Assembly (NCBI GenBank): GCA_018262985.1
Contig: JADFDI010000010.1
Span: forward strand, 9,274-73,273
Reading direction: 5' to 3'
From: Spirochaetota bacterium
GTDB taxonomy: Bacteria; Spirochaetota; Spirochaetia; Treponematales; UBA12059
DNA length: 64,000 bases
Position numbers and translations under genes: made by a program. This document shows, one piece after another, positions 1 through 63,300 of the stretch. Position 1 is the first letter of the stretch, and every line of letters begins with the position of its first letter. Below the pieces are notes generated by a model. It had not been told where the DNA came from. It made no database searches and saw nothing but the letters and a program-made list of their open reading frames with translations.

Positions 1-870
1 GCGCTCGCCTTAGCCACGGGAACCGTCCTTTTCGTGGCCGTACAGGCCTGGCTCGTCGCCTCGGGGCTCGGCATCCGCCTCGGCCACGTGGAAGCCATTC
101 CACGTTCCCGGGCGGGGCGTTCCGAGATCGGACAGGTGTTCGCCGAGGCGGCTGAAGGGATCGTCGCGGAGGCGCCCGGTCCGCAGGCTCCGCGCGCCGG
201 AACGTACGCGCGGCCCGACGGCGCGGGTGGAGCGCTCGACGAGCTGGCCGCCCTCGAACGGCTCCGCGAGCGCCTCGCGCGTTCGGAAGCGGAAGGCGCG
301 TTCGGGCAGGGGGAGCGGAGCGCCTCGGGCGCCGGAGCGGATCCGGAGGGCCGAGCGGCGCCGGACGGCGGCCCGGCCGAGCCGGACGAGGCGGGCGGCT
401 CCGTCACGAGGGGCCGGCCCCCCGCCGCGGCCCCGGACTCCGGCTCGGGCGATGACGGCGAGGAAGGCGCGGGCGGAGGCGCCGGGGGACAGAGCTCCGG
501 AACCGGGAGCGGGGACGACGGTCCGGGCTCCGCCGCCGCGGGTGATTCCGCCCCCGAGGGGACCGAGGGCCGGGGATCGCCCGGCGCCGCCACGAACGCC
601 GGAACCGGCCACGAGGGTTCGGGGAGCAGCCTCGAGGCGAGCCCGCTGGTCGACTATCGCGCGCGCTTCGAGCGACTGCTGGCCGCGCGCCTGGCCGGCG
701 CGCCGGCCGCGTACGCCGCCTCGCCCTTCCTCTCGCCGGAACGCTACGCAGAGACGGTCGCGCGCGCCTACGGAAGCCTCCGCATCGGCATCGCCGCGAC
801 GGCCGACGAGGAAGCGACGGCCCTGGCGCTGTCCGCGGCCTGGGCGGCCCTGCGGGAGGCCGCGCGATGA
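1..870 (+). CDS. hypothetical protein, 5' partial; hydrophobic N-terminal segment then Gly/Asp/Ala/Pro-rich low-complexity region
   Basis: Frame 1 is open from the window edge to the GTG at 34, so the true start may lie upstream. Third-position GC is high. Stop overlaps the next start (ATGA at 867-870). No family recognised. Confidence 0.45.
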   Translation, partial: ALALATGTVLFVAVQAWLVASGLGIRLGHVEAIPRSRAGRSEIGQVFAEAAEGIVAEAPGPQAPRAGTYARPDGAGGALDELAALERLRERLARSEAEGAFGQGERSASGAGADPEGRAAPDGGPAEPDEAGGSVTRGRPPAAAPDSGSGDDGEEGAGGGAGGQSSGTGSGDDGPGSAAAGDSAPEGTEGRGSPGAATNAGTGHEGSGSSLEASPLVDYRARFERLLAARLAGAPAAYAASPFLSPERYAETVARAYGSLRIGIAATADEEATALALSAAWAALREAAR

Positions 871-1652
871 ACGGGATGCGGCGGCCCGGCAGGGGAGCGT
901 CCCGTCTCGGTTCCGCGTTCCGGGCATCGCGCGGGCCGATCGGCCGCTTCGCGGGGTTGGCCGAGGGCCGCGTCGCCTTCGCGCTCGCGGCGGCCTGCGT
1001 CGGAGCGCTCCAATGGGCGCTCGCGGCCATCCTCCAGCGAGCTCTGTCCCTCGACGGGGCGGGCTCGCCGACGCCGGAGGCCTTGCCCCGCGTCGCGGCC
1101 GCCGTCCTGACGGAAGAGCTGCCCCGTCTCGCCGCCGGCCTGGCCTTCGCCCTCGCGGCGCGGAAGGCGCGCTACGGGGCCCTCGCGCTTTTCGGCCCGG
1201 TGGCCTCGACCGCCTTCGCCCTCCTCGAGAACCTCGCCTTCCTCGCGGCTTTTCCCGACGCCTCGGCCTTCCGGCGCCTCTTCTGGTCGACGCCGCTCCA
1301 TGTCGGCGCGGCGCTCGGCTTCGCCCTGGCCTTCGCGCCGCTCGCGCGCGGCGAGTCGGCGAAGGCCGCGCGTCCCCTGGCCCGCGGCGCCATCGCGTTC
1401 GGGACGGCCTTCCTCTGGCATCTTACCCTCAATCTCGGAGCGCTCGCCGGACCCGGCCCCGCGCTCCGGACGGCCGTCGGCGCGGCCAACCTCGCCGCGC
1501 TGGCGATCCTGGCCGCGCGCGCGACCGCGGCCCTCGACCGCCCTTCGCTCATCGACCTGGATACCCCGCGCCCGGCGCGGAAGAGAAGGCGCGGACGCGG
1601 CGACGAGCGCGACCCGACCCGAGGAGTACACGATGGATTCGAACGAGCTTGA
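867..1652 (+). CDS. polytopic membrane protein, possibly PrsW-like intramembrane protease (weak)
   Basis: Several hydrophobic helices. Motifs ALLENLAF and WHLTLN (HxxxN) resemble PrsW-family signatures. Start is coupled to the upstream gene (ATGA). Confidence 0.5.
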   Translation: MNGMRRPGRGASRLGSAFRASRGPIGRFAGLAEGRVAFALAAACVGALQWALAAILQRALSLDGAGSPTPEALPRVAAAVLTEELPRLAAGLAFALAARKARYGALALFGPVASTAFALLENLAFLAAFPDASAFRRLFWSTPLHVGAALGFALAFAPLARGESAKAARPLARGAIAFGTAFLWHLTLNLGALAGPGPALRTAVGAANLAALAILAARATAALDRPSLIDLDTPRPARKRRRGRGDERDPTRGVHDGFERA

Positions 1653-3479: not shown

Positions 3480-4953
3480 GTTCGCGGTACGCCTCGCGTT
3501 GCTGTTGATGCCCGTCGCGGCGCTGCTCTTCGCGGGGCTCCTCAGGCGGCAACGGCTCCGCTACCCGCACACGCTCTTCCTCGGGCGCGACGGGCGGACC
3601 GCGGGCCGGCTCCTTTTCAGGCGGCTCAGGCTCTTCTACGACGCCGCCATCGACGCGTTCATCGCCCTGGTCATCGCGGCGGCGCTCGGAGGCTGGCCCG
3701 GGCCGCGCGAGCTGCCGGCCGCCTTCGTGGTCGACTGGTCGCGCTCAATGGCCGAGGGCTTCCCCGGCTCGCGCCCGGTCGACCTGGCCATCCGCTCGCT
3801 CCGGGCCGATCCGCGCGCCGAGGGCGCCTCGTGGTTCCTGCTCAGGCAGGACCCGCTCTCGGGGGAAGCGGTCGTGGAGGACGCGACGGCCGCGATCGCG
3901 GGCGGGGGCGATCCGGCCTCGCTCGTGGCGGTGCTGCGCGCGACGCGGCCCATGCTCGGCGCGGACCCCTCCGCGCTCGCCGCGCTTTCGCGAAAGGCGC
4001 GCCGCGACATCGTGCTCGCGAGCGATTCCGCGGCCTACGAAGCGGTCGGCTTCGAGCTGCTGGCCATGCCGAGCTCGCCCGTACGAGCCGCCCTGCCAGC
4101 CCGGGTTTCGCGGGACCACGAGGCGGGCGGCTGGACCGCCTTCCTGGCGGCTCGGGGCGGCGCCCGCGAGCTCCTCGTCCTCGAGCCGGGTCCGGAAGGC
4201 GCGGCGCCCAGGCCGCTCGGACCGGAGCGCGCCGCCGTCGAAGCCGTCGACGGCGGCTGGAAGGTCAGGCTCTCCGCGCCGGGCGCCTACCTGGCCATGG
4301 CCGAGGACGCGACGCTGCCCTTCGTCGCGACGGAAGGACCCGGGCGCCCGTCCGGGCATGGCTCCTTTTCCGCCGCCATGGCGGGGGTCTTCGAGTTCCT
4401 GCCGGATCTGGGCGGAAGGGGCGCGGTCTTCACCGATGCCCCGCAGGGGGACGGAGCTCGCGGTCCGGCTCCGGTCGGCGGCGTCGACGGCGCGCGGATC
4501 GTGGCGAGCGCTATCGCGACCGATGCGGAAACCGCGGTCCGCCTCGCCGATCCCGCCTCGACGCGCGGACGGCTCCTCGCGCTCGGCGCGCCCGGGGCAG
4601 GGCCGCCGGAGGCGGACTTCGTCCTCGCCCCGCGCGCCCTCGACAACCCGAACCTGCCGCTCGCCTACTGGACCGTACTGGAGCGAGAGGCCGCGCGGAT
4701 CGACGGGGCCTTCGAGGCGTTGAAGATCGTGAGCGCCGGTGACGGCCTGTTCGCGTACGGCTCCGACGGCCGGGTCCGCGCCGCGGCGCCGCCGGCCGCC
4801 GAGTACGAGGAGGCTACGCCGGGACCGCGCGTCGTCCTCCCCTCCCCCGAAGCGCGCCGCTGGATTCCGGCGTCGCTCCTGGCCCTGCTCGCCCTGGCCA
4901 AGCTCGCATTGGCCCGCGCCTTCGCCCGTCCGGGGAGGAAGGGCGGGCCTTGA
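3472..4953 (+). CDS. BatA-like membrane-anchored protein with putative vWA MIDAS motif
   Basis: Start overlaps the DUF58 stop. N-terminal TM helices, FVVDWSRSM (DxSxS MIDAS-like) and a C-terminal TM helix. Position downstream of MoxR-DUF58 matches Bat operons. Confidence 0.6.
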   Translation: MPEFAVRLALLLMPVAALLFAGLLRRQRLRYPHTLFLGRDGRTAGRLLFRRLRLFYDAAIDAFIALVIAAALGGWPGPRELPAAFVVDWSRSMAEGFPGSRPVDLAIRSLRADPRAEGASWFLLRQDPLSGEAVVEDATAAIAGGGDPASLVAVLRATRPMLGADPSALAALSRKARRDIVLASDSAAYEAVGFELLAMPSSPVRAALPARVSRDHEAGGWTAFLAARGGARELLVLEPGPEGAAPRPLGPERAAVEAVDGGWKVRLSAPGAYLAMAEDATLPFVATEGPGRPSGHGSFSAAMAGVFEFLPDLGGRGAVFTDAPQGDGARGPAPVGGVDGARIVASAIATDAETAVRLADPASTRGRLLALGAPGAGPPEADFVLAPRALDNPNLPLAYWTVLEREAARIDGAFEALKIVSAGDGLFAYGSDGRVRAAAPPAAEYEEATPGPRVVLPSPEARRWIPASLLALLALAKLALARAFARPGRKGGP

Positions 4954-4956
4954 GTC

Positions 4957-7025: not shown

Positions 7026-7141
7026 GGCTCCTCCGCGCGCCGCGCCCCGCTCGGGCACCGGCGACGGCTGACAGTACCCTTTCCCGAGCCCTTCCGTAAA
7101 GTGCGAATCCGCGGGGCGGCGCCCGGACCTATACTCGAGAC

Positions 7142-7837
7142 ATGGGAAACACGATGACCGCCAGCCTGGCGGAGGCCGCGCGGGACTACCGCTGGCTGCT
7201 CGACCGGGGCTACCCGGAACGCGGCTCGGCGACGCTGGTCGAGGACCGCCGCCGGCTCGACGCCGCCGAACGGCTGGCCCTCTATCGGGGCGTCAGCTCC
7301 GCCGCGGCCTCGCGATCACGCGCCGCGAAGCGCCTCGGCTCGATCGGGGGCCGCATCCTCGCGCTCGACGCCTACAACGCCCTGTTCCTCTGCGCCAACC
7401 GCCTTGCCGGGCATTTCATCCTGATCGCGGACGACGGCTTCGTGCGCGATGCCGGAGGCGCCCACGGCCGGGTTGCCGACCCGACCCGCTTCGCGCGCGC
7501 CGCGGAACTGGTGGCCGACGCGGTCGCGGCCGCCCGTCCCGCGCGCGTCATCGCCGCCTTCGACTCACCCGTGCCCCGTTCGGCGGAACACGCGCGCGCC
7601 TTCGCCGAGGCGTTGGCCGCGCGGGGCGTCGCGGCGGGGACAGAGCTCGCGAGGAGCGCCGATTTCGCCGTGAAAACCGCGTGCCTCCGGGACGGCGCCG
7701 TGGCCGGCACGGGCGACTCGGCCCTCGTCGACTCGGTCTCGGAGGCTTGGGACGCGGGCCGGGCCGCGCTGGAAGCCTTGGACGGCAGTCCGCCGCCGTA
7801 TGCCGACTTCGGGGTAGCGCTCGGCGCGGGAGCGTGA
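7142..7837 (+). CDS. hypothetical protein, DUF434-like N-terminus (tentative)
   Basis: N-terminal YRWLLDRGYPERGS resembles the DUF434 motif as I remember it. High GC3 in this frame. Contains one motif copy (7637). Confidence 0.4.
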   Translation: MGNTMTASLAEAARDYRWLLDRGYPERGSATLVEDRRRLDAAERLALYRGVSSAAASRSRAAKRLGSIGGRILALDAYNALFLCANRLAGHFILIADDGFVRDAGGAHGRVADPTRFARAAELVADAVAAARPARVIAAFDSPVPRSAEHARAFAEALAARGVAAGTELARSADFAVKTACLRDGAVAGTGDSALVDSVSEAWDAGRAALEALDGSPPPYADFGVALGAGA

Positions 7838-7884
7838 CCGCGGAGACACCGAGGCAAGAGGGAGAGCAGGATGGGGAAAAGGAA

Positions 7885-7910
7885 GCGCCCGCGGCGGGGG
7901 CCGCGGGCGC
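7885..7910. terminator. bidirectional GC hairpin between convergent genes
   Basis: Perfect 10-bp stem GCGCCCGCGG / CCGCGGGCGC with a 6-nt loop. T-containing tract downstream on + (cgtgttgt) and a T-rich tract on - (tccttttcccc). Confidence 0.5.
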
Positions 7911-8025
7911 CGTGTTGTACGTTGGAACTGTGACCTCCGTGGACGCATCGGTCGCGGCCGAACCGCATCGCGCCGCCGAAGTCACGCCCCCATCGGAGCG
8001 ATGGAAAGGGCCCGCGGCGAAACGC

Positions 8026-9251: not shown

Positions 9252-9289
9252 TGAGTACTCTCCCGGTTCTGCGCGAACGGGGCCGGGGC

Positions 9290-12335: not shown

Positions 12336-12540
12336 GAGCTCTGTCCCTCTTGAGCTCTGTCCCTCCCCGAGCTCTGTCCCAGAGCTCTATCCCTGAGCTC
12401 TGTCCCTGAGCTCTGTCCCTGAGCTCTGTCCCTGAGCTCTGTCCCTGAGCTCTGTCCCTGAGCTCTGTCCCTCCCGAGCTCTGTCCCTCTTGAGCTCTGT
12501 CCCTCCCGCGGCGGGCTCTGTCCCTCCCGAGCTCTGTCCC
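12336..12540 (-). repeat. array of 14 copies of GAGCTCTGTCCC(T), including 7 consecutive 13-bp tandem units
   Basis: Copies start at 12336, 12352, 12369, 12382(v), 12395, 12408, 12421, 12434, 12447, 12460, 12476, 12492, 12513(v), 12529. An identical 36-nt block occurs at 12331-12366 and 12471-12506. Confidence 0.95.
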
Positions 12541-12566
12541 TCAGCGCGGCCCGCAGCGCCGAGGCC

Positions 12567-12595
12567 TTGACCCGATCCGGAGGGGGCGCTATATT
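12567..12595 (+). promoter_or_regulatory. sigma70-like promoter for the glutaredoxin-like gene
   Basis: TTGACC (12567-12572), 17-nt spacer, TATATT (12590-12595). Followed by an AT-rich leader and RBS GGAGGA before ATG 12632. Confidence 0.55.
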
Positions 12596-12631
12596 ACATA
12601 TAGTTTTCTATATATTGCGGAGGAAAGCGAC

Positions 12632-17211: not shown

Positions 17212-17389
17212 GGGCTCTGTCCCCGTCGAGACGGGCTCTGTCCCCGGAAGCGAGCGATCGCGCGGGCCGGCCGCCGAACGGGGTTGAGCTCTGTCCCTAA
17301 AGGCATCCCACGGGGCTGAGCTCTCCGATGCATTCGCCGGGGTTGAGCTCTGTCCCTCCGATGCATTCGCCGGGGTTGAGCTCTGTCCC
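17212..17389 (-). repeat. array of GAGCTCTGTCCC copies (3 exact, 2 GGGCTCTGTCCC variants, 1 decayed) with a 33-bp higher-order unit
   Basis: Copies at 17212(v), 17233(v), 17286, 17318 (decayed), 17345, 17378. The 33-nt unit ggggttgagctctgtccctccgatgcattcgcc starts at 17339, and the next unit starts at 17372. Confidence 0.9.
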
Positions 17390-17465
17390 TGATGGCAGTC
17401 CGGGCGCGAAACCCGGCCGCCCTCGCTTGACCCCCCGCGCGACGCGCCGCTAAGCTCGCCGGAAC

Positions 17466-20442: not shown

Positions 20443-21372
20443 ATGACAGGCAATTTTCCGGAGGAAACGAACGGCCGCCCGAGCCTAGCCAGGCGCGCGC
20501 GCCCCTTCGAGGCGGCCATCCGCGGCCTCCTCTTCGTCTCCGCCGCCATCTCGGTGCTGACGACCATCGGCATCGTGCTCACCCTCGGAACGGAGTCCTG
20601 GGGCTTCTTCCGCGAGGTGGGCGTCCTCGAGTTCCTCGGCTCGCTCGAGTGGCAGCCGGTCATCGGCGACTTCGGCATCTGGCCCCTGTTCAACGCCACG
20701 CTGACGACGAGCTTCTACGCCATGCTGGTGGCCCTGCCCGTCGGCCTCATGGTGGCCATCTACCTGGCCGAGTACGCGAGCGACCGGGTGCGCGAGACCC
20801 TCAAGCCCGTGCTCGAGGTGCTCGCGGGCATCCCGACCGTGGTCTACGGCTACTTCGCGCTCGCGACCGTGACGCCCTTCCTCCGCTCCCTGCTGGGGAC
20901 AGAGCTCGTGGGCGTCTACAACACCTTCTCGGCGGGGCTCGTCATGGGCATCCTGATCCTGCCCTTGGTGAGCTCGATGTGCGAGGACGCGCTTTCCGCC
21001 GTGCCGCGTTCGCTCCGCGAGGGCGCCTACGCCATGGGCGCCACGAAACTCGAAGTGGCCACGCAGGTGGTGGTGCCGGCGGCCTTCTCGGGGCTCGCGG
21101 CGGCCTTCATCCTCGGCCTTTCGCGCGCGGTGGGCGAGACGATGATCGTGGCGCTGGCCGCTGGCGCGGGACCGAAGTTCACCCTCAACCCCTTCGAGCC
21201 CGCCGAGACCATGACCGGCCACATCGTCCGCATCTCGGGCGGCGACATCTCCTACGACTCCATCGACTACCGGAGCCTCTTCGCCATCGCCCTGGTGCTC
21301 TTCCTGGTCACGCTGGCCCTCAACATCCTTTCGCGCCGCATCGTGGCGAAGCACTGGGAGGTCTACGAATGA
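20443..21372 (+). CDS. pstC: phosphate ABC transporter permease
   Basis: 6-TM permease with an EAA-type loop (REGAYAMGATKLEV). Position after pstS. Confidence 0.9.
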   Translation: MTGNFPEETNGRPSLARRARPFEAAIRGLLFVSAAISVLTTIGIVLTLGTESWGFFREVGVLEFLGSLEWQPVIGDFGIWPLFNATLTTSFYAMLVALPVGLMVAIYLAEYASDRVRETLKPVLEVLAGIPTVVYGYFALATVTPFLRSLLGTELVGVYNTFSAGLVMGILILPLVSSMCEDALSAVPRSLREGAYAMGATKLEVATQVVVPAAFSGLAAAFILGLSRAVGETMIVALAAGAGPKFTLNPFEPAETMTGHIVRISGGDISYDSIDYRSLFAIALVLFLVTLALNILSRRIVAKHWEVYE

Positions 21373-24155: not shown

Positions 24156-24230
24156 GGGACAGAGCTCGCCGCGCGAGGGACAGAGCTCGTTGCGCGAGGG
24201 ACAGAGCTCGTTGCGTGAGGGACAGAGCTT
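24156..24230 (+). repeat. four GGGACAGAGCT(C/T) copies at exact 21-bp phasing
   Basis: Copies start at 24156, 24177, 24198 and 24219(v). Unit is gcgcGAGGGACAGAGCTCgtt. Lies between the phoU stop (24129) and the regulator start (24280). Confidence 0.95.
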
Positions 24231-36888: not shown

Positions 36889-37052
36889 GGGCTCTGTCCC
36901 CGCCATCTAGCTCCGAGCTCTGTCCCTACCATCGAGCTCCGAGCTCTGTCTCCGCTGACGGCCTCCATCTACCACGAGCGAGCTCTGTCCCCAGGGGCGA
37001 GCTCGGCTCCCGGCGAACCCAGTCACCGCCACCGAGCTCCGAGCTCTGTCCC
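36889..37052 (-). repeat. array of GAGCTCTGTCCC copies (3 exact, 2 variants)
   Basis: Copies at 36889(v), 36915, 36941(v), 36980, 37041. The extended unit (a/t)(c/g)cgagctccGAGCTCTGTC recurs. Confidence 0.9.
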
Positions 37053-41521: not shown

Positions 41522-44500
41522 CTAGCTCTGTCCCTCTCCGCCGACGGGACCGTCGCCATCACCGGTACCGGCGGTCTCCGAGCTCTGTCCCTCTCCGCCG
41601 GTTCCGGCATCGTCCGGGATCGGGGCGTCAACGGGGTCGCGGAAGGCGCCATCCTCGATGCCGGGGGCGGAGGATGCGTCGTCAAGGCCGAGCGAGAGCT
41701 CGCGGCCGTCCTCCCAGGGCACCTCCTCCTCGTCCTCCATGGCCACGATGGGCTTGGGCGGGACGATCGGGGCGCCGTCGGAGCGCTCGAGGCGCATGGC
41801 GATGGCCTTGGTGACGCCGGATTCCTCCATGGTCACGCCGAGCAGGGCGTCGGCGCCGGTCACCGTCTTCTTGTTGTGCGTGATGACGATGAACTGGCTC
41901 ATGCGGCCGAATTCTCGGAGCAGCGTGACGAAGCGCACCACGTTCTGCTCGTCGAGGGCGGCGTCGATCTCGTCGAGGAAGCAGAAGGGCGAGGGCTTGA
42001 CCATGTAGGTCGCGAAGAGGAGGCCGATGGCGGTCATCGACTTCTCGCCGCCGGAGAGCAGGCTGATCGCCTCGAGGCGCTTCCCCGGAGGCTGGGCGTA
42101 GATCTCGATGCCCGACTCGAGGACGTGGTCCGGGTCGACCATGCGGAGCTCGCCCCGGCCGCCGCCGAAGAGCCTTCGGAAGAGGTTGTGGAAGTTCTTC
42201 TTGATCTTGTTGTAGGTCTCGAGGAAGAGCTCGGCGCTCTCGGCGCGGATCTCGGCCGTGATGCGCTTCAGGTCCTCGCGCGCCTTCTCGAGGTCCGCGA
42301 GCTGGGTCGAGAGGAAGTCGTAGCGCTCCTTGACCTCGGCGTACTCCTCGACGGCCATGAGGTTGACCGAGCCGAGGTCCTTGAGCTTCGAGCGCGCGGC
42401 GGCGAGCTTCTCGCGGAGGTCAGCCATCGGCGCGCGAAGCTCGTACATGCGCTCCTCGAACTCCACGAGCTCGCGCGAGTACTGCTCGCGGAAGTTGTCC
42501 TTGACGTTGCGGATCTCGGTCTCGACCTGCGCGAGGCCCATGTGGAGCCGCTCGAGCTCGGACTGCACCTGGCCGAGCTTCTCCATCTTCTTCCTGAGCT
42601 CGCCCTGGCGGTTCGAGAGCTCGGAGTTGCGGAGCGCGATGTCCTTCTCGAGCTTCTCGAGCGCCGCGGTCAGTTCCCGTCCCTTCTTCTCGATCTCGGC
42701 GATCTCCTCGTCGAGGTCGGAAAGGCGCTCCTCCGCCTCGGCGTGGCGCTTCTCCTCGAGCCAGGCCTCGTTCTCGAGTTCGCGGAGCATGGCCTCCTGC
42801 GCGGCCACCTCGCGGCGGAGCAGGGCGAGGCTCTCCTCGGCGGCCTGGGCCTGGGTCTGGATGCGGATGCGGTTGCCGCGGAGCTCCTCGAGGGTCTTGC
42901 GGTACTCGTCGACCTTGAGCGCGAGCTCGCGGTTCTCCTCGCGGCGGCGCGCCATATCCGCGCGGCGCGAGGCGACGCCCTCGGCGATCTTCCGGATGCG
43001 CTCGTCGGCGCTCCGCTTCTTGGTGATGATGCCTTCGGGCGAGAGGAACTCGTCGAGGAAGGCCGGGCTCGTGGCCTTGTAGCGGGCGAAGCGCTCGCGG
43101 AGCTCGAGGCTTTGCGCGGCGGTCTCGTCGAGGGCCGCGCGGGCGCGGCGCAGCAGTTCCCTCGCGGAGTCCGAACCCACGTCGCGGAGCTTCTCGAGGT
43201 CGTCGAAGAGGGCGGCGCGGCCCTCGAGCCGGGCCACGATGCCGGCCACGAGCGCGTCGATGGCCTCCTCGGCCGCGCGGCGCTCCTGGGCGGAATAGCC
43301 GGTCTCCTTGAGGCGGGCGTCGAGCTCGGCGACGATGTCCTCGGTGATGGCGTCCAGCTCTCGCTGGGCCTCGCCGCGTTCGAGGTCAAGCTTGAGGATC
43401 TCCGCCTCGGCCTTGACGACGGCGGCCTCGTTGTCCTTGATGCGGCCGTCGGCGACGGCGATGTTCTCCTCGAACGAGGCGACGTTGCGGTCGATCTCGG
43501 CGAGGCGCCCCTTGACGGAACGGAGCTCGCCCTCCTTCTCGTCGACGTCCTCGCGCAAGCCCTCGAGCCGTTCGGAAACGCCCTTGGCCCGGAGCCGCGC
43601 CTGGTCCGCCTTGGCCTTGGCCTCGGCGACGCGCTCCACCAGGAGCTTCCGCTCCTTTTCCTTGCCGGCGCGCTCGACGGCGAGGCCGTACACGGTCTTC
43701 TGGTGCTCGACGAGCGTAGCCTCCATCGAGTTGACCACGTCGAGGCTCTCCTCGAGGGTCTGGTTGATGGCGTCTATCTCGCCCTTCACCTTGTCGCGCT
43801 CGCGGGTGCGGTGACCGACTTCCTCGTCGCGGCGCGCCTTCTCGTCGACGAACTGGCGCAGCTTGAGGAGGTGGAGGTCGAGCTCGGACTCGAAGACCTG
43901 GTCGCGCAAGGCCCGGTAGGCGAGCGTCTTGTCGGCCTGGACCTTGAGGGTGTCGTGGCTGCGCTTGACCTCGCCGAGGATGCCCTGCACCTGGCGCAGG
44001 TTCTCCTCGGTGCGCGCGAGCTTCTGCTCGGCTTCCTTCGAGCGCACCTTGTGCTTGGTGATGCCGGCCGCCTCCTCGAAGAGGTAGCGGCGTTCCTCCG
44101 GCTTCGAGGAGAGGATCTGGTCGATGCGGCCCTGCTCCATGACGGAGTAGGCGCTCTTGCCGATGCCCGTGTCCCAGAAGAGCTCGCGGATCTCCTTGAG
44201 CTTGGCCTGAGTCCCGTTGAGCAGGTACTCGCTCTCTCCGGAGCGGTAGAGGCGGCGCTTGATCTGGACCTCGGGCAGGTCGATGGGAAGCCGGCCCGTC
44301 TCGTTGGAGATGGTGAGCGTGACCTCGGCCACCGATAGGGCTTTGCGCGTCTCGGTGCCGTTGAAGATGATGTCTTCCATGCTCTCGGCGCGGAGGCTGC
44401 GGGCCGACTGCTCGCCGACCACCCACTTGATGGCGTCGACGACGTTGGACTTGCCGCAGCCGTTCGGGCCGAGCAGGGCGGAGATGCCGTCGGCGAACTC

Positions 44501-44560: not shown

Positions 44561-44733
44561 GGGTCACCCTCGGGGACAGAGCTCTGCGGGAAGGGCGCAT
44601 CCTAGCACGCCGCCCCCCGCCCCCGCAAGACCGAGGCTAAAGCCTTATATCAAAAAGAGAACCGCGGAGGCTCGGAGGCGCCGGAGGCCACGGCCTCGAA
44701 GTCGGCCGTCGCCGGTTTCGAGGCCGGGCGCGC

Positions 44734-46863
44734 TCAGTCGGCCAGGCAGCGGTCGCGGCCCGAGGCCTTGGCGGCGTAGAGCCGCCTGTCGGCGAGCGCC
44801 ACCATCGCCTCGACCGAGAAGCCCTCGCGTTCGAATTCCGCGCTGTCGGCCACGCCGCCGCTGAACGTCATGCGGATCGCGCGGCCTTCGAAGTCGAGGG
44901 CCAGCGCCCGCGCCGCGCCCATTATGCGTTCGAGCATGACGATGACCTCGCCCTTTCGGGCGCTTGGCGAGACGATGAGGAATTCCTCGCCGCCGTAGCG
45001 TCCGAGCAATTCGTAGGGACGTATCGACGAGGCGAGCAAGGCCGCGAAATTCCTGAGCACCAGGTCGCCCGCCTGGTGGCCGAACGTATCGTTGATGGCC
45101 TTGAAGCGGTCGATGTCTAGGATCGAGACGCAGAAATTCCTCTCGCGCCGCACGTACTCGGCGCCGATCGCCTCGAGGCGCTCGAAGAGGTGGCGGCGGT
45201 TGTAGGCTCCCGTGAGCGGATCGCGGACCGCGAGCTCGCGGATGCGCTCCTCCATGAGCTTTTTCTCGGTGATGTCGGAGTGGGTGCCGTACATCTTGAG
45301 CGGCCTGCCCTCCGCGTCGCGCTCCACCACCCGCCCGCGGTCGAGCACCCAGACCCACGAGCCGTCGCGGTGACGCATGCGGCTCTCGTGCTCGTAGTAC
45401 GGCGCGCGCCCCTCGAAGTGCTCGGCGAGGAGCCGATCCGACTCCGCGAGGTCGTCGGGGTGCGCGAGCGCTTCCCAGGTGCCGATGCTCGTCGGCGAAA
45501 GCTCGGCGAGCGAATAGCCCAGCATTTCCGCCCAGCGTTCGTCGAACACCGTCTCGCCGGTCCGCACGTTCCACTCCCAGGTACCGAGCCGCGTGCCTTC
45601 GATGACGTTGGCGAGGCGCTTCCGCTCGACCTCGAGCGCCTCGCGCAGGGTCACGGTCTCGGTGACGTCGACCATCACCGTAAGCAGGAATCGCCGGCCT
45701 TGCGTCTCGATGAGCTCGCCGGAGAAGAGCCCGTGGATGAGCGCGCCGTCCTTGCGGCGCAGCTCGAGCTCGCGGTTCCGGACGCGCCCCCCGGCCTCGA
45801 GCTCCCCGACCGCGCCGCGCCAGCGGCGGCCGTCGACGAAGAGCCGGAGCTCGGGGCTCCGCACGCCGATCACCTCGCGCCGCTCGTAGCCCAAGACGCG
45901 GAGGAAGGCCTCGTTGACGTCGACGAAGCGGTGGTCGGGGACAGAGCTCACCGCCATCGCCGCGGGATTGCCGTGGAAGAGCCGCTCGAATTTCTGGAGG
46001 GCGGCCTGCTCGGCGCTGAGGTCCTTCGACACGCCGAAGATGGCGGGGCGCCCGTCCCACTGGCCGAACCAGACCCGCGTCTCGACGGGCACCCGGCTGC
46101 CGTCGCGGGCGCCGAGCTCGAGGGGACAGCGGTCCAGCTCGCGCCGGAACATGGCGTCGAGGATGCAGGCCGCCTCGTCGCGCTTGTCGGCCGGGTGCAG
46201 CTCGATGATGGGCAAGCCCACGAAGTCCCCGCGCGCGTAGCCCAGGCGGCGGCACGCGGCCTCGTTCGCGTAGACCACGCGGCCCTCCGTGTCGCCCACC
46301 ACGATGATGTCGTCCACCGTCTCGAAGAAGGTCCGGAAATTCGCCTCGGAGACGGCGATCCGGTCGCCGAGCAACTTCTTGGCGTACGCCGTCGAGACGA
46401 TGCCGGAGATGGTCCGCAACGTCTCGATCTCCGTCGAGGTCCACGCCCGATGGCCGCAGCATTCGTCGAAGCCGAGGAAGCCCCGCACGCCGCCTTCGAC
46501 CAGGAGGGGCGCGAAGACGATGGCGCTGATGCCCTGCGCTTCGAGCACGCCGCGGACGTCGTCAGGCAAGGTGCCGACATCCTCGACCGGGTAGACCACC
46601 TTCCGGTCCAGGATGGCCTTCCAGCTGGGAATGGAAGCGTAGGGGATGTCCTTCAGGTTGTCGATCTCGGGCTCGACCCCCTCGGCGCACCACTCGTGGG
46701 TGTTGGAGGTGGTTTCTCCGTCGTCGGAATCGAGGAACAGGTAGCAGCGGGAAACGCCGAGGCGCGAGCCCATGAGCGCGAGGCTGCGGTTCACCTGAAC
46801 GTCGAAGCCGTCGCCCGTGACGAAGATGAGGGCTATCTCGGAGATGGTCCCGGATTCCAGCAT
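44734..46863 (-). CDS. GAF-PAS-PAS-PAS-GGDEF diguanylate cyclase
   Basis: N-terminal GAF-like domain, three PAS-like repeats, and a C-terminal GGDEF domain with RYGGEEF and DRFKAINDTFGH. Confidence 0.9.
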   Translation of the reverse strand: MLESGTISEIALIFVTGDGFDVQVNRSLALMGSRLGVSRCYLFLDSDDGETTSNTHEWCAEGVEPEIDNLKDIPYASIPSWKAILDRKVVYPVEDVGTLPDDVRGVLEAQGISAIVFAPLLVEGGVRGFLGFDECCGHRAWTSTEIETLRTISGIVSTAYAKKLLGDRIAVSEANFRTFFETVDDIIVVGDTEGRVVYANEAACRRLGYARGDFVGLPIIELHPADKRDEAACILDAMFRRELDRCPLELGARDGSRVPVETRVWFGQWDGRPAIFGVSKDLSAEQAALQKFERLFHGNPAAMAVSSVPDHRFVDVNEAFLRVLGYERREVIGVRSPELRLFVDGRRWRGAVGELEAGGRVRNRELELRRKDGALIHGLFSGELIETQGRRFLLTVMVDVTETVTLREALEVERKRLANVIEGTRLGTWEWNVRTGETVFDERWAEMLGYSLAELSPTSIGTWEALAHPDDLAESDRLLAEHFEGRAPYYEHESRMRHRDGSWVWVLDRGRVVERDAEGRPLKMYGTHSDITEKKLMEERIRELAVRDPLTGAYNRRHLFERLEAIGAEYVRRERNFCVSILDIDRFKAINDTFGHQAGDLVLRNFAALLASSIRPYELLGRYGGEEFLIVSPSARKGEVIVMLERIMGAARALALDFEGRAIRMTFSGGVADSAEFEREGFSVEAMVALADRRLYAAKASGRDRCLAD

Positions 46864-48537: not shown

Positions 48538-48732
48538 GGGACAGAGCTCACAGGGCAACAAGCGAGTCCCCCCCATAGGGACAGAGCTCAGAGATGGCAA
48601 CAACGGAATCAAAGGGACAGAGCTTCCGGCAACAACGAGAGCAGGGACAGAGCTTCCGGCAACAACGAGAGCAGGGACAGAGCTCTCATGAAGGAACGAC
48701 TCGGTTCCAGGGACGTTTTGGGGACAGAGCTT
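48538..48732 (+). repeat. array of six GGGACAGAGCT(C/T) copies immediately upstream of the RAYT-like gene
   Basis: Copies at 48538, 48578, 48614(v), 48644(v), 48674, 48721(v). The 30-nt unit ggcaacaacgagagcagggacagagcttcc occurs twice. catagggacagagctca occurs twice. Confidence 0.95.
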
Positions 48733-48793
48733 CAGCGATGTAAAAATATTCTGCGAGCGCAAGCGCCCTGTCGTCTTTTGACGGTACGATGGC

Positions 48794-49342
48794 ATGCACA
48801 AACCACGCTTGCTGAGGGATGGCGCCTTGTACCACGTCACCGCGCGCGCAAACCGCCAGGAGCTCGTGATGAAGGGGGCCGCCATGAAAGCGCTCTTCAT
48901 CCGTACGCTCCGCCGCGCGAGGAAACGGTACGATTTCCGTCTCGAGAACTTCTGCGTCATGGGAAACCATTTCCACCTCATGATCCGCCCCGGCCCGAAC
49001 GAAAGCCTCTCGCGGATCATGCAGTGGATCATGAGCGTCTACGCCATGGCCTGGAACCGTCGCCATCGGCTGACCGGTCACCTTTGGGGCGATCGGTTTT
49101 TCTCGCGAATCATCGAAGGCCTCAAAACCTTCCTCGAAGTGTTCAAGTATCTCGACGACAATCCGGTGAGCGCCGGGCAGGTATCGAATCCGCGCGAGTG
49201 GCGCTTCGGAGGGCTCTGGCGCCAACGTACCGGGTTCCCGGATCCCGGCGAGCCGCCATCCTCGCACGTGGCGCTGCTCTTCCCGGAACACGTAAAACTC
49301 GCGTTGCCCGCGCCCGTCACGACTTTCGATTCAACGTCGTGA
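48794..49342 (+). CDS. IS200/IS605-type Y1 (HUH) transposase homolog, RAYT-like
   Basis: LYHVTARANRQE, CVMGNHFHLMI (HUH), WNRRHRLTGHLWGDRFFS, YLDDNPVSAG are colinear with the Y1_Tnp / REP-associated tyrosine transposase family. Single gene with no tnpB. GC lower than surroundings. Confidence 0.75.
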   Translation: MHKPRLLRDGALYHVTARANRQELVMKGAAMKALFIRTLRRARKRYDFRLENFCVMGNHFHLMIRPGPNESLSRIMQWIMSVYAMAWNRRHRLTGHLWGDRFFSRIIEGLKTFLEVFKYLDDNPVSAGQVSNPREWRFGGLWRQRTGFPDPGEPPSSHVALLFPEHVKLALPAPVTTFDSTS

Positions 49343-56594: not shown

Positions 56595-56640
56595 GGGGTC
56601 AAGGTACGGAACGGCCCGGAGGCTGTCAAGCGGAGGCGGG

Positions 56641-60147: not shown

Positions 60148-60393
60148 GCTTTGCCGCGTACCCGGCCCCGAGGGCGCGGAACGCGTACTTCGTTATCGGC
60201 CGATCGCGGTCCCGGGCCGAGTCCATTCCACGAGACCTCGCGGCCTCGCGGCGTATCGGGGCTTTACCCGCGCCGCGCGCCTTCGACTATACTGCATCCG
60301 CGCCAGCCGCGCCGCGCGAGCTCTGTCCCCGAGGCGCGTCGCAAGGCGCGTCAACCGGAAAGATCCGCCCGCACGGCGGAAGGAGTTCCCGCC

Positions 60394-63300
60394 ATGCGCT
60401 CCCGGATCAAGGCCTTCCCGCGCTTCACCCTCGCGGCGCTCCTCTCCGTTCTCGCCGCGGCGTACGGCCATGCCGACCTCTACGCCCCGAACCGCCCCCT
60501 GCTCGAGATCCGCACGGAACGCTTCGCCATCGCCTTCCCGCCGGAGCTCGAGGAAACCGCGCGACGCCTCGCCTCGTTCGCGGACTCCGCCTGGGAGGAA
60601 GTCGCCGCCAAGCTCGACCCCGAGGGGGCGGGAACGGTGAGGAGGGACGGACCGCGGATCCCCGTCATGCTCACGCCGGATTCCGGGGTAATCAACGCCT
60701 ACCGCGCGAGTTCGCCCTATGGCCGCATCGTGCTCTACGCGGCGCCCGCGGAGCTCGATTCGACGCTCGGTTCCTTCGACGACGACCTGCGCTCGGCGTT
60801 CCTCCACGAGCTGACCCACGAACTCTCGCTCTCCATCCGCTCGCCCTTCTGGCGCGCCGCGGCGGCCGTCCTCGGCGACGCCTGGGCTCCCGCCGCGCTC
60901 TGGACCGCGAGTCCGCCCATGATCGAAGGCGTCACGACAGCCTTCGAGAGCGAAGCCCCGGACGGGGGCGCGGTCGCGCAAGGCAGGGCCAATGATCCGC
61001 TTTCGATGGCGACCGTGCGGCAGGACCTCGCGGAAGGCGTCAGGCGCAGCTGGGCCCAGGCTTCGGGAGCGGGCGACCGCTACCCCTGGGGCGCCAACCA
61101 TTACCACTACGGCGGCGCCTTCTCGCGCTGGCTCCGGGAAACGCGCGGACCGCTAGCCTATGCCGCGCTCTGGAAGGAACTGGGAGCGGGGCGCCCGCTC
61201 GAGGGCGAAGGTAGCAACGCCTTCTCCTCGGGCGCGTTCGAGCGCGCGTACGGCGAGGACCTGGACGAGCTCTGGACGGCCTTCCTCGTCGCCCTGACGC
61301 CCCGGGTTCCCCTGCTCGTCCCCCGCCTGCTCGAACCGGGAGACCCAGGCCTGCGCGCGCCGACGTTCCGAGTCGTCGCGCTGGCCGCCGGCCCGGGCGC
61401 GCTGTTCGTCGCCGACGCCTCGCGGGCCGCGGTCTTCGCCTACCCGGCCGATGGCGGCCCGGTCGAGCGCCTATTCGCGATCGACGGCTACGTGTCGCGA
61501 CTCGACGCCTCGACCGACGGTACGCGGCTCCTCGTCTCGTACGCCCGGACCGGTTCGGGCCAGACGAAAGCCGAGGCTCGCGTCTGGAACCTCGAATCGG
61601 GACGTTGGGCAGACGCCCCGATCGGCAACCTCGCCGCCGCGGCTTTTTCCGGGGCTTCCTCCATCGTTGGCCTGGAGCCGGGAGCCTTCGAGGCCGACCT
61701 GGTCGAGGTGCTTCGGGACGGCTCGCGCCGTATCCTGCTCGAAGGGGGATCCGGACGGACCTACGGAGCGCCGGTGCCGCTCCCGGACGGCTCGATCGCC
61801 TTCGCCGCCGATCTCGCGGATCTCGCGGGCCCGGCCGGCGCCCCGGAGGGAGGGCGGCGCTGGACCGTGTTCCGCCTGCTGCCGGACGGTACCTTGCTCG
61901 AGCTCGCGGTCGAGGACGACGAGGGTGACGCCCTCTTCATGGCCGGAGGGGAACTCGGCTGGCCGCGCTTCCTTTCGCGCGGCCGCGGCGACGGCCTGCT
62001 TTTCTCGGTCGCGCGCGACGACGGCTTCTACCGCCTGGCCCGGCTCGAGGGAGGCGCGCTGCAGGTCATGGGCGCGGAAATCTCGGGCGGCGTCCAGAGG
62101 CCCGTCGAGCTCGCGGTTCCCGGCGGGGACAGAGCCGTGGCCTACCTCGGCGCCTTTTCCGACGGCGAACGCCTCTGCCTGCTGGATCCGGCCGCCCCGG
62201 AACTGGAAACGAGAGCCTACGAGGTCATCTGGCGCGCTTTCGAAGACAACAGGGACAGAGCTCGCACGGCCGACCCGGGTTCGTCGGCGGGCTCGGGCGG
62301 CGAGGCCGCGGGAGCGGGGACCGGAGCGGCCGACGCCGGGAAGCGCCCCGGAGCCGGGTACGAAGTCGGCGCGTGGAACCCCTGGCCCTGGATCCTGAGG
62401 CCCCTGCGCTGGCCGGTCATGGACGTGACGGTGGAAAACGGCTCCTTCCGCGCGCGCGGGCTCGGAGCCGGGGCGATGTTCGCCGATCCCGCCGAGCGCT
62501 GGATCTTCCTCGTCGAGTCCTCGTGGGATTTCGCCGCCGGAGCCGCCGATCTGTACGCGGAGCTCGCCGTATCGGCCGGTCCCTTCTCCGTGACGCTGGC
62601 CGGTCGCGACGGGTTCTCCGCGCTGGAGGACGGCAGTCCGTACCGGCTATCCGCTGGGGCGGCCTCGCTCGCGGCGGACTTTCCGCTGGTTCCGTATTGG
62701 CGGGCCCTGTCGGCCCGGTTGACCCTCGCCGCCTCCCGCCTCGCCGAGGCGCCGTCGGGAGATCCGTACGGCGGCGAGGTCGCCGCCTCCTTCGCGACCC
62801 TCGACGCGAGCGCTGCCTGGTCCAGCCTCCACCGCGAAACGCGCCGCGGAATCTTCGGCGAGGAAAGGGCGCGCGCGGGGTTCCGCTTCGCCCTCCGCGG
62901 CACGCTCGAGGCGGACGCCGAAGGCTTGGTCGAGCCCTCCGACGCGAGGCCGGCCTTTGAAGGCGCCTTCGAGCTGGCCGAGGCGCGGAGCGCCCTCTCG
63001 TTCGCGGCATGGGCCGCTTGGGCGCCGCTCGGCGGCGCGGCTTTCGGCCCCGGAGGGCGGGTTCTCGTCGACGGCGGAAGCTTTTCGCCCTCGAGCCTCC
63101 TTCCATGGTATCCTGTTGTGGGCGAGTTCGCGGGCTCCGGTCCGGCGGCGACCTTCTACGCCCAGCTCGACGCCCGGCTCACGCTCGCGGCCGTCGAGCT
63201 GCAGGGTCCGCTCCCCCTCCTGCCCGTCTACCTGGCCCGGACGATCCTCTCGGCGGGCGCGCGCTCGGCGCTGGGTCCGGAGCTCTTCCAGCCTTCGGTC

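What the first reader, a model, noticed from the sequence alone, without database searches (positions are those of the whole stretch)
486..62263. Hyper-abundant dispersed 12-mer GGGACAGAGCTC: at least 37 exact and about 12 one-mismatch copies in 64 kb
Exact copies found by manual scan:
- GGGACAGAGCTC on the + strand (16): 486, 7637, 20896, 24156, 24177, 24198, 39718, 39808, 39859, 39943, 44573, 45938, 48538, 48578, 48674, 62252.
- Reverse complement GAGCTCTGTCCC on the + strand (21): 1039, 12336, 12352, 12369, 12395, 12408, 12421, 12434, 12447, 12460, 12476, 12492, 12529, 17286, 17345, 17378, 36915, 36980, 37041, 41580, 60318.

Under a simple composition model at about 70% GC, a 12-mer with 8 G/C and 4 A/T is expected about 0.01-0.02 times in 2 x 64 kb. 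That is my rough estimate.

What the copies have in common:
- Conservation ends abruptly at the 12-13 nt core; flanks differ between loci.
- Copies within an array are always direct, never inverted.
- Both strands are used about equally.
- Copies occur in five intergenic arrays and inside at least seven ORFs in different frames (GQSS, GTEL, ALSL, SSVP, RDRA).

This profile does not fit the usual classes:
- CRISPR: the repeat is too short and there are no cas genes.
- REP/BIME: no hairpin-forming inverted pairs.
- Chi/KOPS: no strand skew.
- Neisseria-type uptake sequences: those typically sit as inverted pairs in terminators.
Basis: seen in the sequence. Interest (0 to 1): 0.85.

Follow-up and report, generated by a model that had tools for sequence, protein, structure and literature searches.

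The report
Spirochaete 12-mer repeat tied to transposase
The hyper-abundant 12-mer is real and is most likely the partner repeat of a domesticated single-strand DNA transposase (RAYT/TIRYT type) encoded in the same window, a REP-like system that is unusual because the repeat has no hairpin, forms direct arrays and is shared by many spirochaete species.

Summary
It encodes an HUH/Y1 transposase of the RAYT/TIRYT kind, and a six-copy array lies 62-256 nt upstream of it in sense orientation.

I retrieved 80 homologues of this gene from metagenomes without reference to the motif. Among the 70 unique loci with enough upstream sequence, 54 carry a sense GGGACAG-started copy within 200 nt upstream. 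Only 28 of 201 other genes on the same contigs do (p 5e-22). The 5' half, GGGACAG, is invariant. The 3' half changes with the transposase clade ("dialects"). A distant Y1 gene in a Vicinamibacterales genome is flanked by inverted arrays of the same 12-mer.

GGGACAG fits the GGGGWSAS repeat published for TIRYT genes (Di Nocera 2013), and the protein is closer to TIRYTs than to canonical RAYTs.

The repeat departs from REPs: it has no hairpin, forms direct arrays that vary between strains, and has in-gene copies that arise by substitution and use very rare codons.

Verdict: a real feature and a new variant of a known kind. How the copies spread is inferred, not shown.

The parts
48794..49342 (+). 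Gene for a 182-aa HUH/Y1 transposase of the RAYT/TIRYT kind (HUH = NHFHL at residues 58-62, catalytic Tyr119 in YLDDNP)
   Evidence: Pfam PF01797, E 2.7e-15. NCBIfam NF047646 'REP-associated tyrosine transposase', 81.9 bits against a cut-off of 80. H59, H61 and Y119 are invariant in 40 homologues. The only PDB sequence hit is 4ER8 TnpA_REP. The AF2 model's best fold match is 4ER8_A, TM 0.67/0.73. It is closer to published TIRYTs (E 2e-33) than to E. coli RAYT (E 3e-5).
48538..48732 (+). Six-copy direct array (3 exact, 3 GGGACAGAGCTT) lying 62-256 nt upstream of the transposase gene in sense orientation
   Evidence: Equivalent sense copies sit upstream of 54 of 70 independently retrieved homologues.
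48759..48787 (+). Conserved boxes between the proximal motif copy and the ATG: GCAAGC, and CGGTAC (consensus (G/T)CAA(G/T)C at about -44 and GCGTAT at about -19); possibly the gene's own promoter or leader
   Evidence: Alignment of 28 upstream regions. The sigma-70 consensus scan found no promoter here, so the role is inferred.
12336..12540 (-). 14-copy direct array (12 exact, 2 one-mismatch; periods 13-37 nt, mostly 13 and 16-17) between an MFS transporter gene and a glutaredoxin gene
   Evidence: At the orthologous locus, relatives have about 13, 2 or 0 copies.
17212..17389 (-). Five-copy direct array (3 exact, 2 GGGACAGAGCCC) between the LysO-type exporter gene and the dihydroorotate dehydrogenase electron-transfer subunit gene
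   Evidence: Relatives L082 and L106 keep the first copy but differ in the rest.
24156..24230 (+). Four-copy direct array (period 21) between phoU and an OmpR-type response regulator gene
36889..37052 (-). Five-copy direct array (3 exact, 2 one-mismatch) upstream of an ECF sigma factor gene
39718..39954 (+). Five-copy array (4 exact, 1 one-mismatch) inside the Ser/Pro-rich linker of a lipoprotein gene (39318-40943, -), read antisense as SSVP/GSVP
   Evidence: Spacings of 90/51/39/45 nt are all multiples of 3; the translation has a signal peptide with lipobox and a C-terminal TPR.
486..497 (+). Single exact copy; the coding status of this region is unclear
1039..1050 (-). Single exact copy in a weakly supported ORF (antisense, ALSL)
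4448..4459 (+). Single one-mismatch copy (GGGACGGAGCTC) inside a gene
7637..7648 (+). Single exact copy inside a DUF434/DUF5616 gene, read as GGG ACA GAG CTC (GTEL)
20896..20907 (+). Single exact copy inside the pstC-like permease gene (GTEL). Relative L082 has GGGACGGAGCTC at the same position, with no indel
41523..41591 (-). Two copies (one exact, one GGGACAGAGCTA) at the 3' end of the SMC gene; the stop codon lies inside the one-mismatch copy
44573..44584 (+). Single exact intergenic copy between the SMC and PAS/GGDEF genes
45938..45949 (+). Single exact copy inside the PAS/GGDEF gene (antisense, SSVP)
60318..60329 (-). Single exact intergenic copy
62252..62263 (+). Single exact copy inside a large gene of unknown function (RDRA, using the rare codons AGA and GCT)

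Best explanation
GGGACAGAGCTC is the cognate dispersed repeat of a domesticated HUH/Y1 single-strand DNA transposase of the RAYT/TIRYT kind, encoded in this window at 48794-49342. The window comes from an uncultured high-GC member of the Spirochaetota.

Shown:
- The gene and the repeat are linked across many genomes. A copy of the repeat sits just upstream of the gene in sense orientation.
- The 5' half, GGGACAG, is invariant. The 3' half changes with the transposase lineage.
- Arrays gain and lose units quickly.
- In-gene copies appear at homologous positions by substitution and override codon preference.

Inferred:
- The Y1 enzyme recognises the GGGACAG core, probably on single-stranded DNA, and nicks and rejoins there. 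This both seeds and homogenises copies.
- Slippage or unequal exchange between neighbouring copies expands and contracts arrays.
- The system persists by vertical inheritance, like REPIN-RAYT systems. It differs from them in that the unit is only 12-14 nt, has no hairpin, and is arranged head to tail.
For: The protein is a RAYT-type Y1 enzyme:
- Pfam PF01797.
- NCBIfam NF047646 scores above its cut-off.
- The HUH histidines and the catalytic Tyr are invariant.
- The best sequence and fold match in the PDB is E. coli TnpA_REP, 4ER8.
- It is more similar to published TIRYTs than to canonical RAYTs.

Link between gene and repeat:
- Among 109 loci chosen only for holding the motif, 10 encode full-length homologues. 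In all 10, sense motif copies (up to one mismatch) lie upstream of the start, the nearest 50-172 nt away.
- Among 80 loci chosen only by protein homology, 70 are unique and have at least 200 nt upstream. Of these, 54 have a sense GGGACAG within 200 nt upstream, against 28 of 201 other genes on the same contigs (odds ratio 21, p 5e-22).
- The proximal dialect follows the transposase tree in the main clades: AGCTC/T/G, TGCTx, AGCAA/T, AGGTC/T.
- A Y1 gene only 26% identical, in a Vicinamibacterales genome, is flanked by inverted arrays of the same 12-mer.

Literature:
- TIRYT genes are flanked by repeats sharing GGGGWSAS, and some of these repeats are dispersed in dimers or clusters (PMC3733652; PMC6006769).

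Negative control:
- Arrays at other loci are not conserved even between close relatives. At the MFS-glutaredoxin locus the counts are 14, 13, 2 and 0.

Abundance elsewhere:
- Paired copies occur in at least 34 spirochaete species with GC from 38 to 72%.
Against: - No biochemical data exist for any TIRYT, so the link here is purely correlative.
- The unit lacks the hairpin that all characterised Y1 enzymes use.
- In spirochaetes the gene has repeat copies on its 5' side only, not on both sides as in REPtrons and TIRtrons.
- In-gene copies arise by substitution rather than insertion. Known Y1 chemistry does not explain this; it is what an uptake-bias or selection model predicts.
- In termite-gut Treponema contigs the proximal dialect (AGCAA) often differs from the dialect dispersed on the same contig (ACCYY).
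- Transposase and dialect could covary simply because both follow host phylogeny.
- Sixteen of the 70 homologue loci show no sense core within 200 nt.
Confidence: 0.68

Rival explanations
1. DNA-uptake-sequence-like signal. The 12-mer is a tag preferred by a competence machinery, and it accumulates by biased uptake plus recombination, as DUS does in Neisseriaceae and USS in Pasteurellaceae.
For: - Density is about 0.8 per kb and both strands are used equally.
- The core is sharply bounded.
- In-gene copies are made by substitution at compatible peptides (GTEL, G(G/S)T(E/D)L) and use codons that are otherwise nearly unused: ACA 0.7%, AGA 0.6%, TCT 0.7%.
- Lineage-specific dialects share a constant core, as DUS dialects do (PMC3630211, listed).
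Against: - It does not explain why a copy sits just upstream of a Y1 transposase gene in 77% of homologue loci, in several phyla.
- It does not explain the match to the TIRYT repeat.
- To my knowledge, head-to-tail arrays are not a feature of known uptake sequences.
- There is almost no halo of one-mismatch copies in coding DNA: 6 exact against 2.
- No competence genes are in the window, and to my knowledge natural competence has not been reported for these spirochaetes.
Confidence: 0.08
2. Binding-site arrays for a host DNA-binding protein unrelated to the Y1 enzyme, such as a global regulator or nucleoid-associated protein. The transposase gene would then be just one regulated target.
For: - Arrays lie mostly in intergenic regions, and divergent regions are over-represented: 23 divergent against 8 convergent among 78 intergenic arrays.
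- In the window, arrays lie upstream of an ECF sigma factor gene, a response regulator gene and transporter genes.
Against: - At about 0.8 sites per kb there are far too many for an ordinary regulator.
- Array orientation is unrelated to the flanking genes.
- Arrays are gained and lost between near-identical strains without any change to the flanking genes.
- Copies occur inside genes in several frames.
- The same core flanks Y1 genes in unrelated phyla, which a lineage-specific host factor does not explain.
Confidence: 0.1
3. The Y1 protein is domesticated, and the motif is maintained by selection as a chromosome-level signal read by that protein, for example for replication-fork or single-strand DNA processing, rather than spreading selfishly.
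For: - The association and covariation are the same as for the main explanation.
- The GGGACAG core persists across genomes with GC from 31 to 72%.
- Exact copies are maintained against codon bias.
- The gene appears to be low-copy.
Against: - Arrays are dispensable at individual loci.
- There is no positional or strand pattern in 64 kb.
- No functional data exist.
Confidence: 0.12
4. Chance, or an assembly or chimeric artefact.
For: Short-read assemblers can miscount tandem units, so some copy-number differences between assemblies may be technical.
Against: - 37 copies are observed against 0.01-0.05 expected.
- The same arrays appear in independent assemblies.
- The motif recurs in at least 34 species.
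Confidence: 0.01

Closest known systems
TIRYT / TIRtron repeats (Di Nocera et al. 2013, PMC3733652; subclass 2.1 of TnpA_Y1 in Quentin et al. 2018, PMC6006769)
   Same: The gene is a RAYT-like Y1 gene, and its product resembles published TIRYTs most closely: 30-33% identity and E 1e-26 to 1e-33 against gbm_2474, dau_2153 and rba_2408. The neighbouring repeat starts with (G)GGGACAG, which fits GGGGWSAS. Copies of the repeat are dispersed, singly and in clusters.
   Different: In spirochaetes the copies lie only upstream of the gene and are direct, not terminal inverted repeats on both sides. The protein is short (182 aa) and lacks the C-terminal HTH-like extension of subclass 2.1. The family is far more abundant (about 0.8 per kb) than the 'moderately abundant' TIR families described. 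It also forms arrays with periods down to 13 nt and invades coding sequence.
REP / REPIN - RAYT systems (E. coli, Pseudomonas; PDB 4ER8)
   Same: A low-copy Y1 gene lies next to copies of a short repeat that is dispersed through the chromosome. The repeat varies with the transposase lineage. Inheritance appears to be vertical. The predicted fold matches TnpA_REP best.
   Different: There is no palindrome and no 5' GT[AG]G tag. There are no inverted doublets (REPINs). The unit is 12-14 nt rather than 20-40 nt. Detection pipelines based on 16-mers or longer flanking words would probably miss it (Bertels 2017 used 16-mers).
DNA uptake sequences (DUS / USS)
   Same: Density, use of both strands, a sharply bounded 12-nt core, dialects, and coding copies made by substitution at compatible peptides.
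   Different: The motif is linked to a transposase gene and forms tandem direct arrays. No uptake evidence exists, and no terminator-type inverted pairs are seen.
HIP1 (GCGATCGC) of cyanobacteria
   Same: A short word, hyper-abundant across a whole phylum, present in both coding and non-coding DNA.
   Different: HIP1 is a palindrome tied to DNA methyltransferases. Here the word is asymmetric, forms arrays, and is tied to a Y1 transposase.

Membership tests
RAYT-REP (REPtron) | Y1 HUH transposase with RAYT signature (HUH motif, Y...NP) | tested here: met
   PF01797. NF047646 scores 81.9 against a cut-off of 80. NHFHL and YLDDNP are conserved in 40 homologues. Best PDB match by sequence and by fold is 4ER8.
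RAYT-REP (REPtron) | The gene is flanked by copies of the repeat that is dispersed in the same genome | tested here: met
   Met on the upstream side only: window array 48538-48732; 54 of 70 homologue loci against 28 of 201 control genes. No copy lies downstream of the gene in the window.
RAYT-REP (REPtron) | The repeat is an imperfect palindrome (hairpin) with a 5' GT[AG]G tag | tested here: not met
   The unit folds at 0 kcal/mol. Arrays fold no better than shuffles, except through GAGCTC:GAGCTC pairing between neighbouring copies. There is no GTAG.
RAYT-REP (REPtron) | Repeats occur as inverted doublets (REPINs) | tested here: not met
   All window arrays are direct. Only 3 of 78 intergenic arrays elsewhere mix strands.
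RAYT-REP (REPtron) | The gene is single or low copy and not IS-like | tested here: inconclusive
   There is one copy in 64 kb, and most homologue clusters are seen on 1-2 contigs. Whole genomes were not available.
RAYT-REP (REPtron) | The enzyme binds and cleaves its repeat | not testable with these tools
   This needs purified protein and oligonucleotide assays.
TIRYT / TIRtron | The protein groups with TIRYTs rather than canonical RAYTs | tested here: met
   blastp against sequences from the paper's supplement: TIRYTs score E 2e-33 to 1e-22, E. coli and P. fluorescens RAYTs score E 3e-5 and 5e-6.
TIRYT / TIRtron | The flanking repeat carries GGGGWSAS | tested here: met
   (G/A)GGGACAG matches 7-8 of the 8 positions.
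TIRYT / TIRtron | Terminal inverted repeats lie on both sides of the gene | tested here: not met
   In the window and most spirochaete loci the copies lie upstream only and are direct. The feature is met in the Vicinamibacterales locus L109. In many loci of the low-GC termite-gut clade an inverted pair lies upstream.
TIRYT / TIRtron | C-terminal HTH-like extension (subclass 2.1; median length 238 aa) | tested here: not met
   The protein is 182 aa. The model shows only short helices after the Tyr motif, and the tail has low confidence.
DNA uptake sequence | About one copy per kb, both strands, coding copies made by substitution | tested here: met
DNA uptake sequence | A competence machinery with sequence-biased uptake | not testable with these tools
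   No competence genes lie in the window. Whole genomes and uptake assays are needed.
CRISPR | Repeats of 23-50 nt, unique spacers of similar length, cas genes nearby | tested here: not met
   The repeat is 12 nt. Spacers are 1-78 nt and are often copies of each other. No cas domains were found among the called genes I scanned against Pfam.
Chi / KOPS-type polar motifs | Strand skew that follows the direction of replication | tested here: not met
   16 copies on + and 21 on -, interleaved along the window; no skew switch. A 64-kb window is a limited test.

The most novel reading that the evidence does not exclude
A domesticated Y1 (HUH) enzyme maintains thousands of copies of a hairpin-less 12-nt word across a large part of a bacterial phylum. 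It does so by a templated, conversion-like process that rewrites near-cognate sites in place, coding sites included and against codon bias, and that seeds head-to-tail arrays. This would be a mode of repeat propagation or maintenance different from REPIN transposition. The word might also serve as a chromosome-level signal for that enzyme.
Probability: 0.2. Interest if true: 0.8.

Novelty: new variant of a known kind. Interest (0 to 1): 0.55.

Why it matters
RAYT-REPIN systems are the best example of long-lived, vertically inherited replicators inside bacterial genomes. Everything known about them rests on palindromic repeats in a few proteobacterial groups, and the related TIRYT genes have been written off as having no, or only modest, repeat families.

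This case shows a TIRYT-type gene tied to a very abundant repeat family: about 0.8 copies per kb, in at least 34 spirochaete species with GC from 38 to 72%. The unit is only 12 nt, lacks a hairpin, forms hypervariable direct arrays and enters coding sequence. Pipelines built on long flanking words would probably miss it.

It offers three things:
- a test case for how a Y1 enzyme reads DNA without a hairpin;
- a ready set of variable-number markers for strain typing of uncultured spirochaetes;
- a cultivable carrier, Treponema sp. TIM-1, in which to test it.

Tried and rejected
- **Rfam scan of the window:** no family.
- **tRNA/tmRNA scan:** none.
- **Exact-string literature search for the 12-mer and its complement:** only unrelated primer hits. 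Keyword searches for spirochaete dispersed repeats or uptake sequences found nothing specific.
- **RNA-level or promoter-linked element in sense orientation upstream of genes:** my first impression from the window, but rejected. Over 78 intergenic arrays, orientation is unrelated to flanking gene direction: ++ regions 6 against 6, -- regions 7 against 4.
- **REP-type hairpin:** rejected for the unit and for most arrays. The GAGCTC self-pairing between neighbouring copies is not general, because other dialects (AGCAA, TGCTC, ACCTC) lack the palindrome.
- **Mobile 12-nt insertion into genes:** not supported. In pairwise comparisons of related loci, motif differences outside arrays are substitutions. 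Gaps occur essentially only as unit gain or loss within arrays.
- **Structural-variant breakpoint at the motif:** the 1.6-kb indel in relatives lies about 25 nt from the last copy, not at it.
- **Sigma-70 promoter upstream of the transposase gene:** the consensus scan found none.
- **Structure prediction with locus-derived homologues:** I repeated it with database homologues.

Caveat: genes were called with a simple GC3-based script of my own, so gene-relative statistics are approximate.

Full report
**1. The observation**

Dinucleotide-preserving shuffles give 0.05. An order-3 Markov model gives 0.006-0.014. A further 13 copies have one mismatch.

Aligning all 50 copies shows that conservation stops at the core. 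The only extension is a purine before it (48/50) and G/A after it (42/50). The window is about 70% G+C throughout.

Thirty-nine copies lie in six head-to-tail arrays and eleven are single.
- Five arrays are intergenic.
- The sixth (39718-39954) lies inside a lipoprotein gene (39318-40943, -). It sits in a Ser/Pro-rich linker, with spacings of 90, 51, 39 and 45 nt, all multiples of three.

The rest of the window is ordinary chromosome: the Pst-PhoU phosphate system with a two-component pair, SMC, dihydroorotate dehydrogenase, NAPRTase, a chemoreceptor, a GGDEF protein, exonuclease III and others. It holds no cas or competence genes, no Rfam family and no tRNA.

**2. Where else the motif occurs**

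- About 83 loci come from at least 34 Spirochaetota assemblies (Treponema, Rectinemataceae, Spirochaetales and others; one cultured isolate, Treponema sp. TIM-1). Their locus G+C ranges from 38 to 72%.
- Twelve loci come from one Vicinamibacterales MAG and four from one Planctomycetia MAG.
- The remaining single hits in other phyla look like chance two-copy tandem repeats.

The window itself is 99% identical to a contig of GCA_017994525.1. It is 82-95% identical to contigs of the spirochaete MAGs RA.bin126 and Zod_Metabat.547. It is therefore an uncultured high-GC spirochaete.

**3. Dynamics**

At the orthologous MFS-glutaredoxin spacer, the window has 14 copies. A 99%-identical assembly has 13, another has 2, and two relatives at about 87% identity have none, and they also lack about 100 nt of adjacent spacer.

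At the 17212 array, relatives keep the first copy but differ in all the others.

In pairwise alignments of all related loci, 130 motif copies were conserved, 42 differed by substitution, and 17 involved gaps. The gaps were essentially unit gain or loss inside arrays.

Copies inside genes sit at homologous positions without indels:
- window 20896 against GGGACGGAGCTC in L082;
- IDGGTELA against IDGSTDLA in a 70%-identical orthologue;
- GGGACAGAGCTC against GGGACTGGGCCC and GGGACTCGGCCC, with conserved flanks.

The in-gene copies use codons that are otherwise almost unused in this genome: ACA is 0.7% of Thr codons, AGA 0.6% of Arg, TCT 0.7% of Ser and GCT 3% of Ala.

In coding DNA the excess is concentrated in exact copies (6 exact, 2 one-mismatch, and two-mismatch copies at chance level). 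Something therefore acts on the DNA word itself, in place. Array orientation shows no relation to flanking gene direction.

**4. The missed gene**

The ORF at 48794-49342 (+) lies 62 nt downstream of the 48538-48732 array. It encodes a 182-aa HUH/Y1 transposase.
- It matches Pfam PF01797.
- It matches NCBIfam NF047646, 'REP-associated tyrosine transposase', above the curated cut-off.
- The HUH histidines and the catalytic tyrosine (YLDDNP) are invariant among homologues.
- The only PDB sequence hit is E. coli TnpA_REP, 4ER8.
- An AlphaFold model (pLDDT 79) matches 4ER8 best (TM 0.67/0.73, rmsd 2.3 A), ahead of the IS200/IS608/ISDra2 transposases.

**5. Is the gene linked to the motif?**

*Motif-selected sample.* Of the 109 motif-selected loci, ten encode full-length homologues (43-63% identity). 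All ten have sense copies (up to one mismatch) upstream of the start codon, the nearest 50-172 nt away. That sample is biased, so I drew a second one.

*Homology-selected sample.* I retrieved 80 homologue loci from metagenomes by protein similarity alone. Of 70 unique loci with enough upstream sequence, 54 have at least one sense GGGACAG within 200 nt upstream, 97 copies in all. Only 28 of 201 other genes on the same contigs do (odds ratio 21, p 5e-22).

*Dialects.* The first seven bases are invariant, and the last five change with the branch of the transposase tree:
- AGCTC/T/G in the window's clade;
- TGCTx in a sister clade;
- AGCAA/T in a low-GC termite-gut Treponema clade, often with an extra inverted copy further upstream;
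- AGGTC/T in another clade.

*A second phylum.* A Y1 gene only 26% identical, in the Vicinamibacterales MAG, is flanked on both sides by inverted arrays of the very same 12-mer.

*Contrast with other loci.* Arrays next to other genes are not conserved even between close relatives.

*Database view.* A protein search found at least 450 homologues. Every named one is from Spirochaetota, labelled 'transposase' or, once, 'RayT', and most are seen on one or two contigs.

**6. Comparison with what is known**

Di Nocera et al. (2013, PMC3733652) described RAYT-like genes flanked by terminal inverted repeats instead of REPs. They named them TIRYTs and TIRtrons. Many of those repeats share GGGGWSAS, and some form moderately abundant dispersed families arranged in dimers or clusters.

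Quentin et al. (2018, PMC6006769) equate TIRYTs with subclass 2.1 of the Y1 family and report no REP-like sequences for it.

(G/A)GGGACAG fits GGGGWSAS. By blastp the window protein is far closer to the published TIRYTs (E 2e-33 to 1e-22) than to E. coli or Pseudomonas RAYTs (E about 1e-5). The system therefore belongs to a known kind.

It fails several defining features of both REPtrons and TIRtrons:
- the unit has no hairpin and no GT[AG]G tag;
- copies are direct, not inverted;
- in spirochaetes they lie only upstream of the gene;
- the protein lacks the C-terminal HTH-like extension.

I found no paper describing this family in spirochaetes. Only two papers in the library mention TIRYTs at all. 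Bertels et al. (2017) looked for flanking 16-mers. A 12-nt unit with variable flanks would probably not register in such a search.

**7. How it most likely works**

Shown:
- the gene-repeat link;
- the constant core with lineage-specific 3' half;
- fast array turnover;
- in-place substitution-type copies that defy codon bias.

Inferred:
- the Y1 enzyme reads the GGGACAG core, probably on single-stranded DNA, and nicks and rejoins there;
- this activity, together with slippage or unequal exchange between neighbouring copies, creates, homogenises and resizes arrays;
- the pair is inherited vertically.

The weakest point is that known Y1 chemistry needs a hairpin and produces insertions, not substitutions. 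The coding copies are what an uptake-bias or selection model would predict. I therefore keep three rivals open:
- an uptake-sequence-like drive (0.08);
- an unrelated DNA-binding factor (0.10);
- a selected chromosome signal read by the domesticated enzyme (0.12).

None of the first two explains the transposase link across phyla.

**8. Caveats**

- Gene calls come from a simple GC3 script.
- Short-read assemblies may miscount tandem units.
- Whole genomes could not be counted.
- The evidence for the enzyme-motif relation is comparative only.

**9. Verdict**

This is a real and striking feature. It is explained in kind as a RAYT/TIRYT-associated repeat family, and it is a new variant in form, abundance and taxon. 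Interest is 0.55.

Noticed in passing
window 48759-48787; loci L116-L168, upstream of the Y1 gene: Two DNA boxes, (G/T)CAA(G/T)C at about -44 and GCGTAT at about -19, are conserved between the proximal motif copy and the ATG in homologues whose proteins are only 50-60% identical. There is no Shine-Dalgarno-like sequence. This may be a promoter for a leaderless mRNA or a recognition element; the sigma-70 consensus scan found nothing.
   Followed up: partly
L137, about 200 nt upstream of the Y1 gene: The promoter region and the first 21 or so codons of the Y1 gene are duplicated in tandem, and motif copies lie at the junction. L085 carries a 43-aa 5' fragment of the gene. These rearrangements end at or near motif copies.
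   Followed up: no
L082 300-2050 and L106 200-1940, against window 17390-17465: Relatives carry a 1.6-kb insert of about three ORFs, which I did not annotate, between the orthologues of the LysO-type exporter gene and the DHODH subunit gene. Its boundary lies about 25 nt from the last motif copy.
   Followed up: partly
window 39318-40943 (-): A lipoprotein gene (signal peptide with lipobox, C-terminal TPR) has long Pro/Ala/Ser linkers. One linker holds five in-frame motif copies read as SSVP/GSVP, so the repeat contributes protein sequence.
   Followed up: partly
window 41523-41591 (-): The last codons of the SMC gene run through two motif copies, and the stop codon lies inside the one-mismatch copy. 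The C-terminal tail may be a repeat-derived extension.
   Followed up: no
L175, L179, L180, L187 (termite-gut Treponema contigs): The copy next to the Y1 gene is GGGACAGAGCAA, but the copies dispersed on the same contigs are mostly GGGACAGACCYY. Other Y1 homologues from similar low-GC contigs (L144, L166, L190) carry ACCYY next to the gene. These communities or genomes may hold two paralogue-dialect pairs.
   Followed up: partly
L007 (Planctomycetia ELA673) and L027 (Burkholderiales MAG): Here the same 12-mer is the 5' arm of a near-perfect palindrome (GGGACAGAGCTC-CAGCTCTGTCC; GGGACAGAgctcaagaTCTGTCCC). This is a hairpin-forming, REP-like version of the word in other phyla.
   Followed up: no
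L078 (MAG labelled Bacillota) against L024 (Spirochaetes UR.bin61): The two loci share the same flank and the same 18-nt-period array, so the 'Bacillota' contig is probably a mis-binned spirochaete contig.
   Followed up: no
window 12560-12631: A good sigma-70-like promoter (TTGACC-17-TATATT) for the glutaredoxin gene lies directly beside the 14-copy array. It is retained in relatives that lack the array.
   Followed up: no
window 12395-12471: In the 13-nt-period part of the array, the embedded GAGCTC palindromes of neighbouring direct copies can pair (6-bp stems with AGGGACA loops; z = -3 against shuffles). Direct repeats of this dialect could therefore mimic a tag-plus-hairpin on single-stranded DNA. 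Other dialects lack the palindrome.
   Followed up: partly
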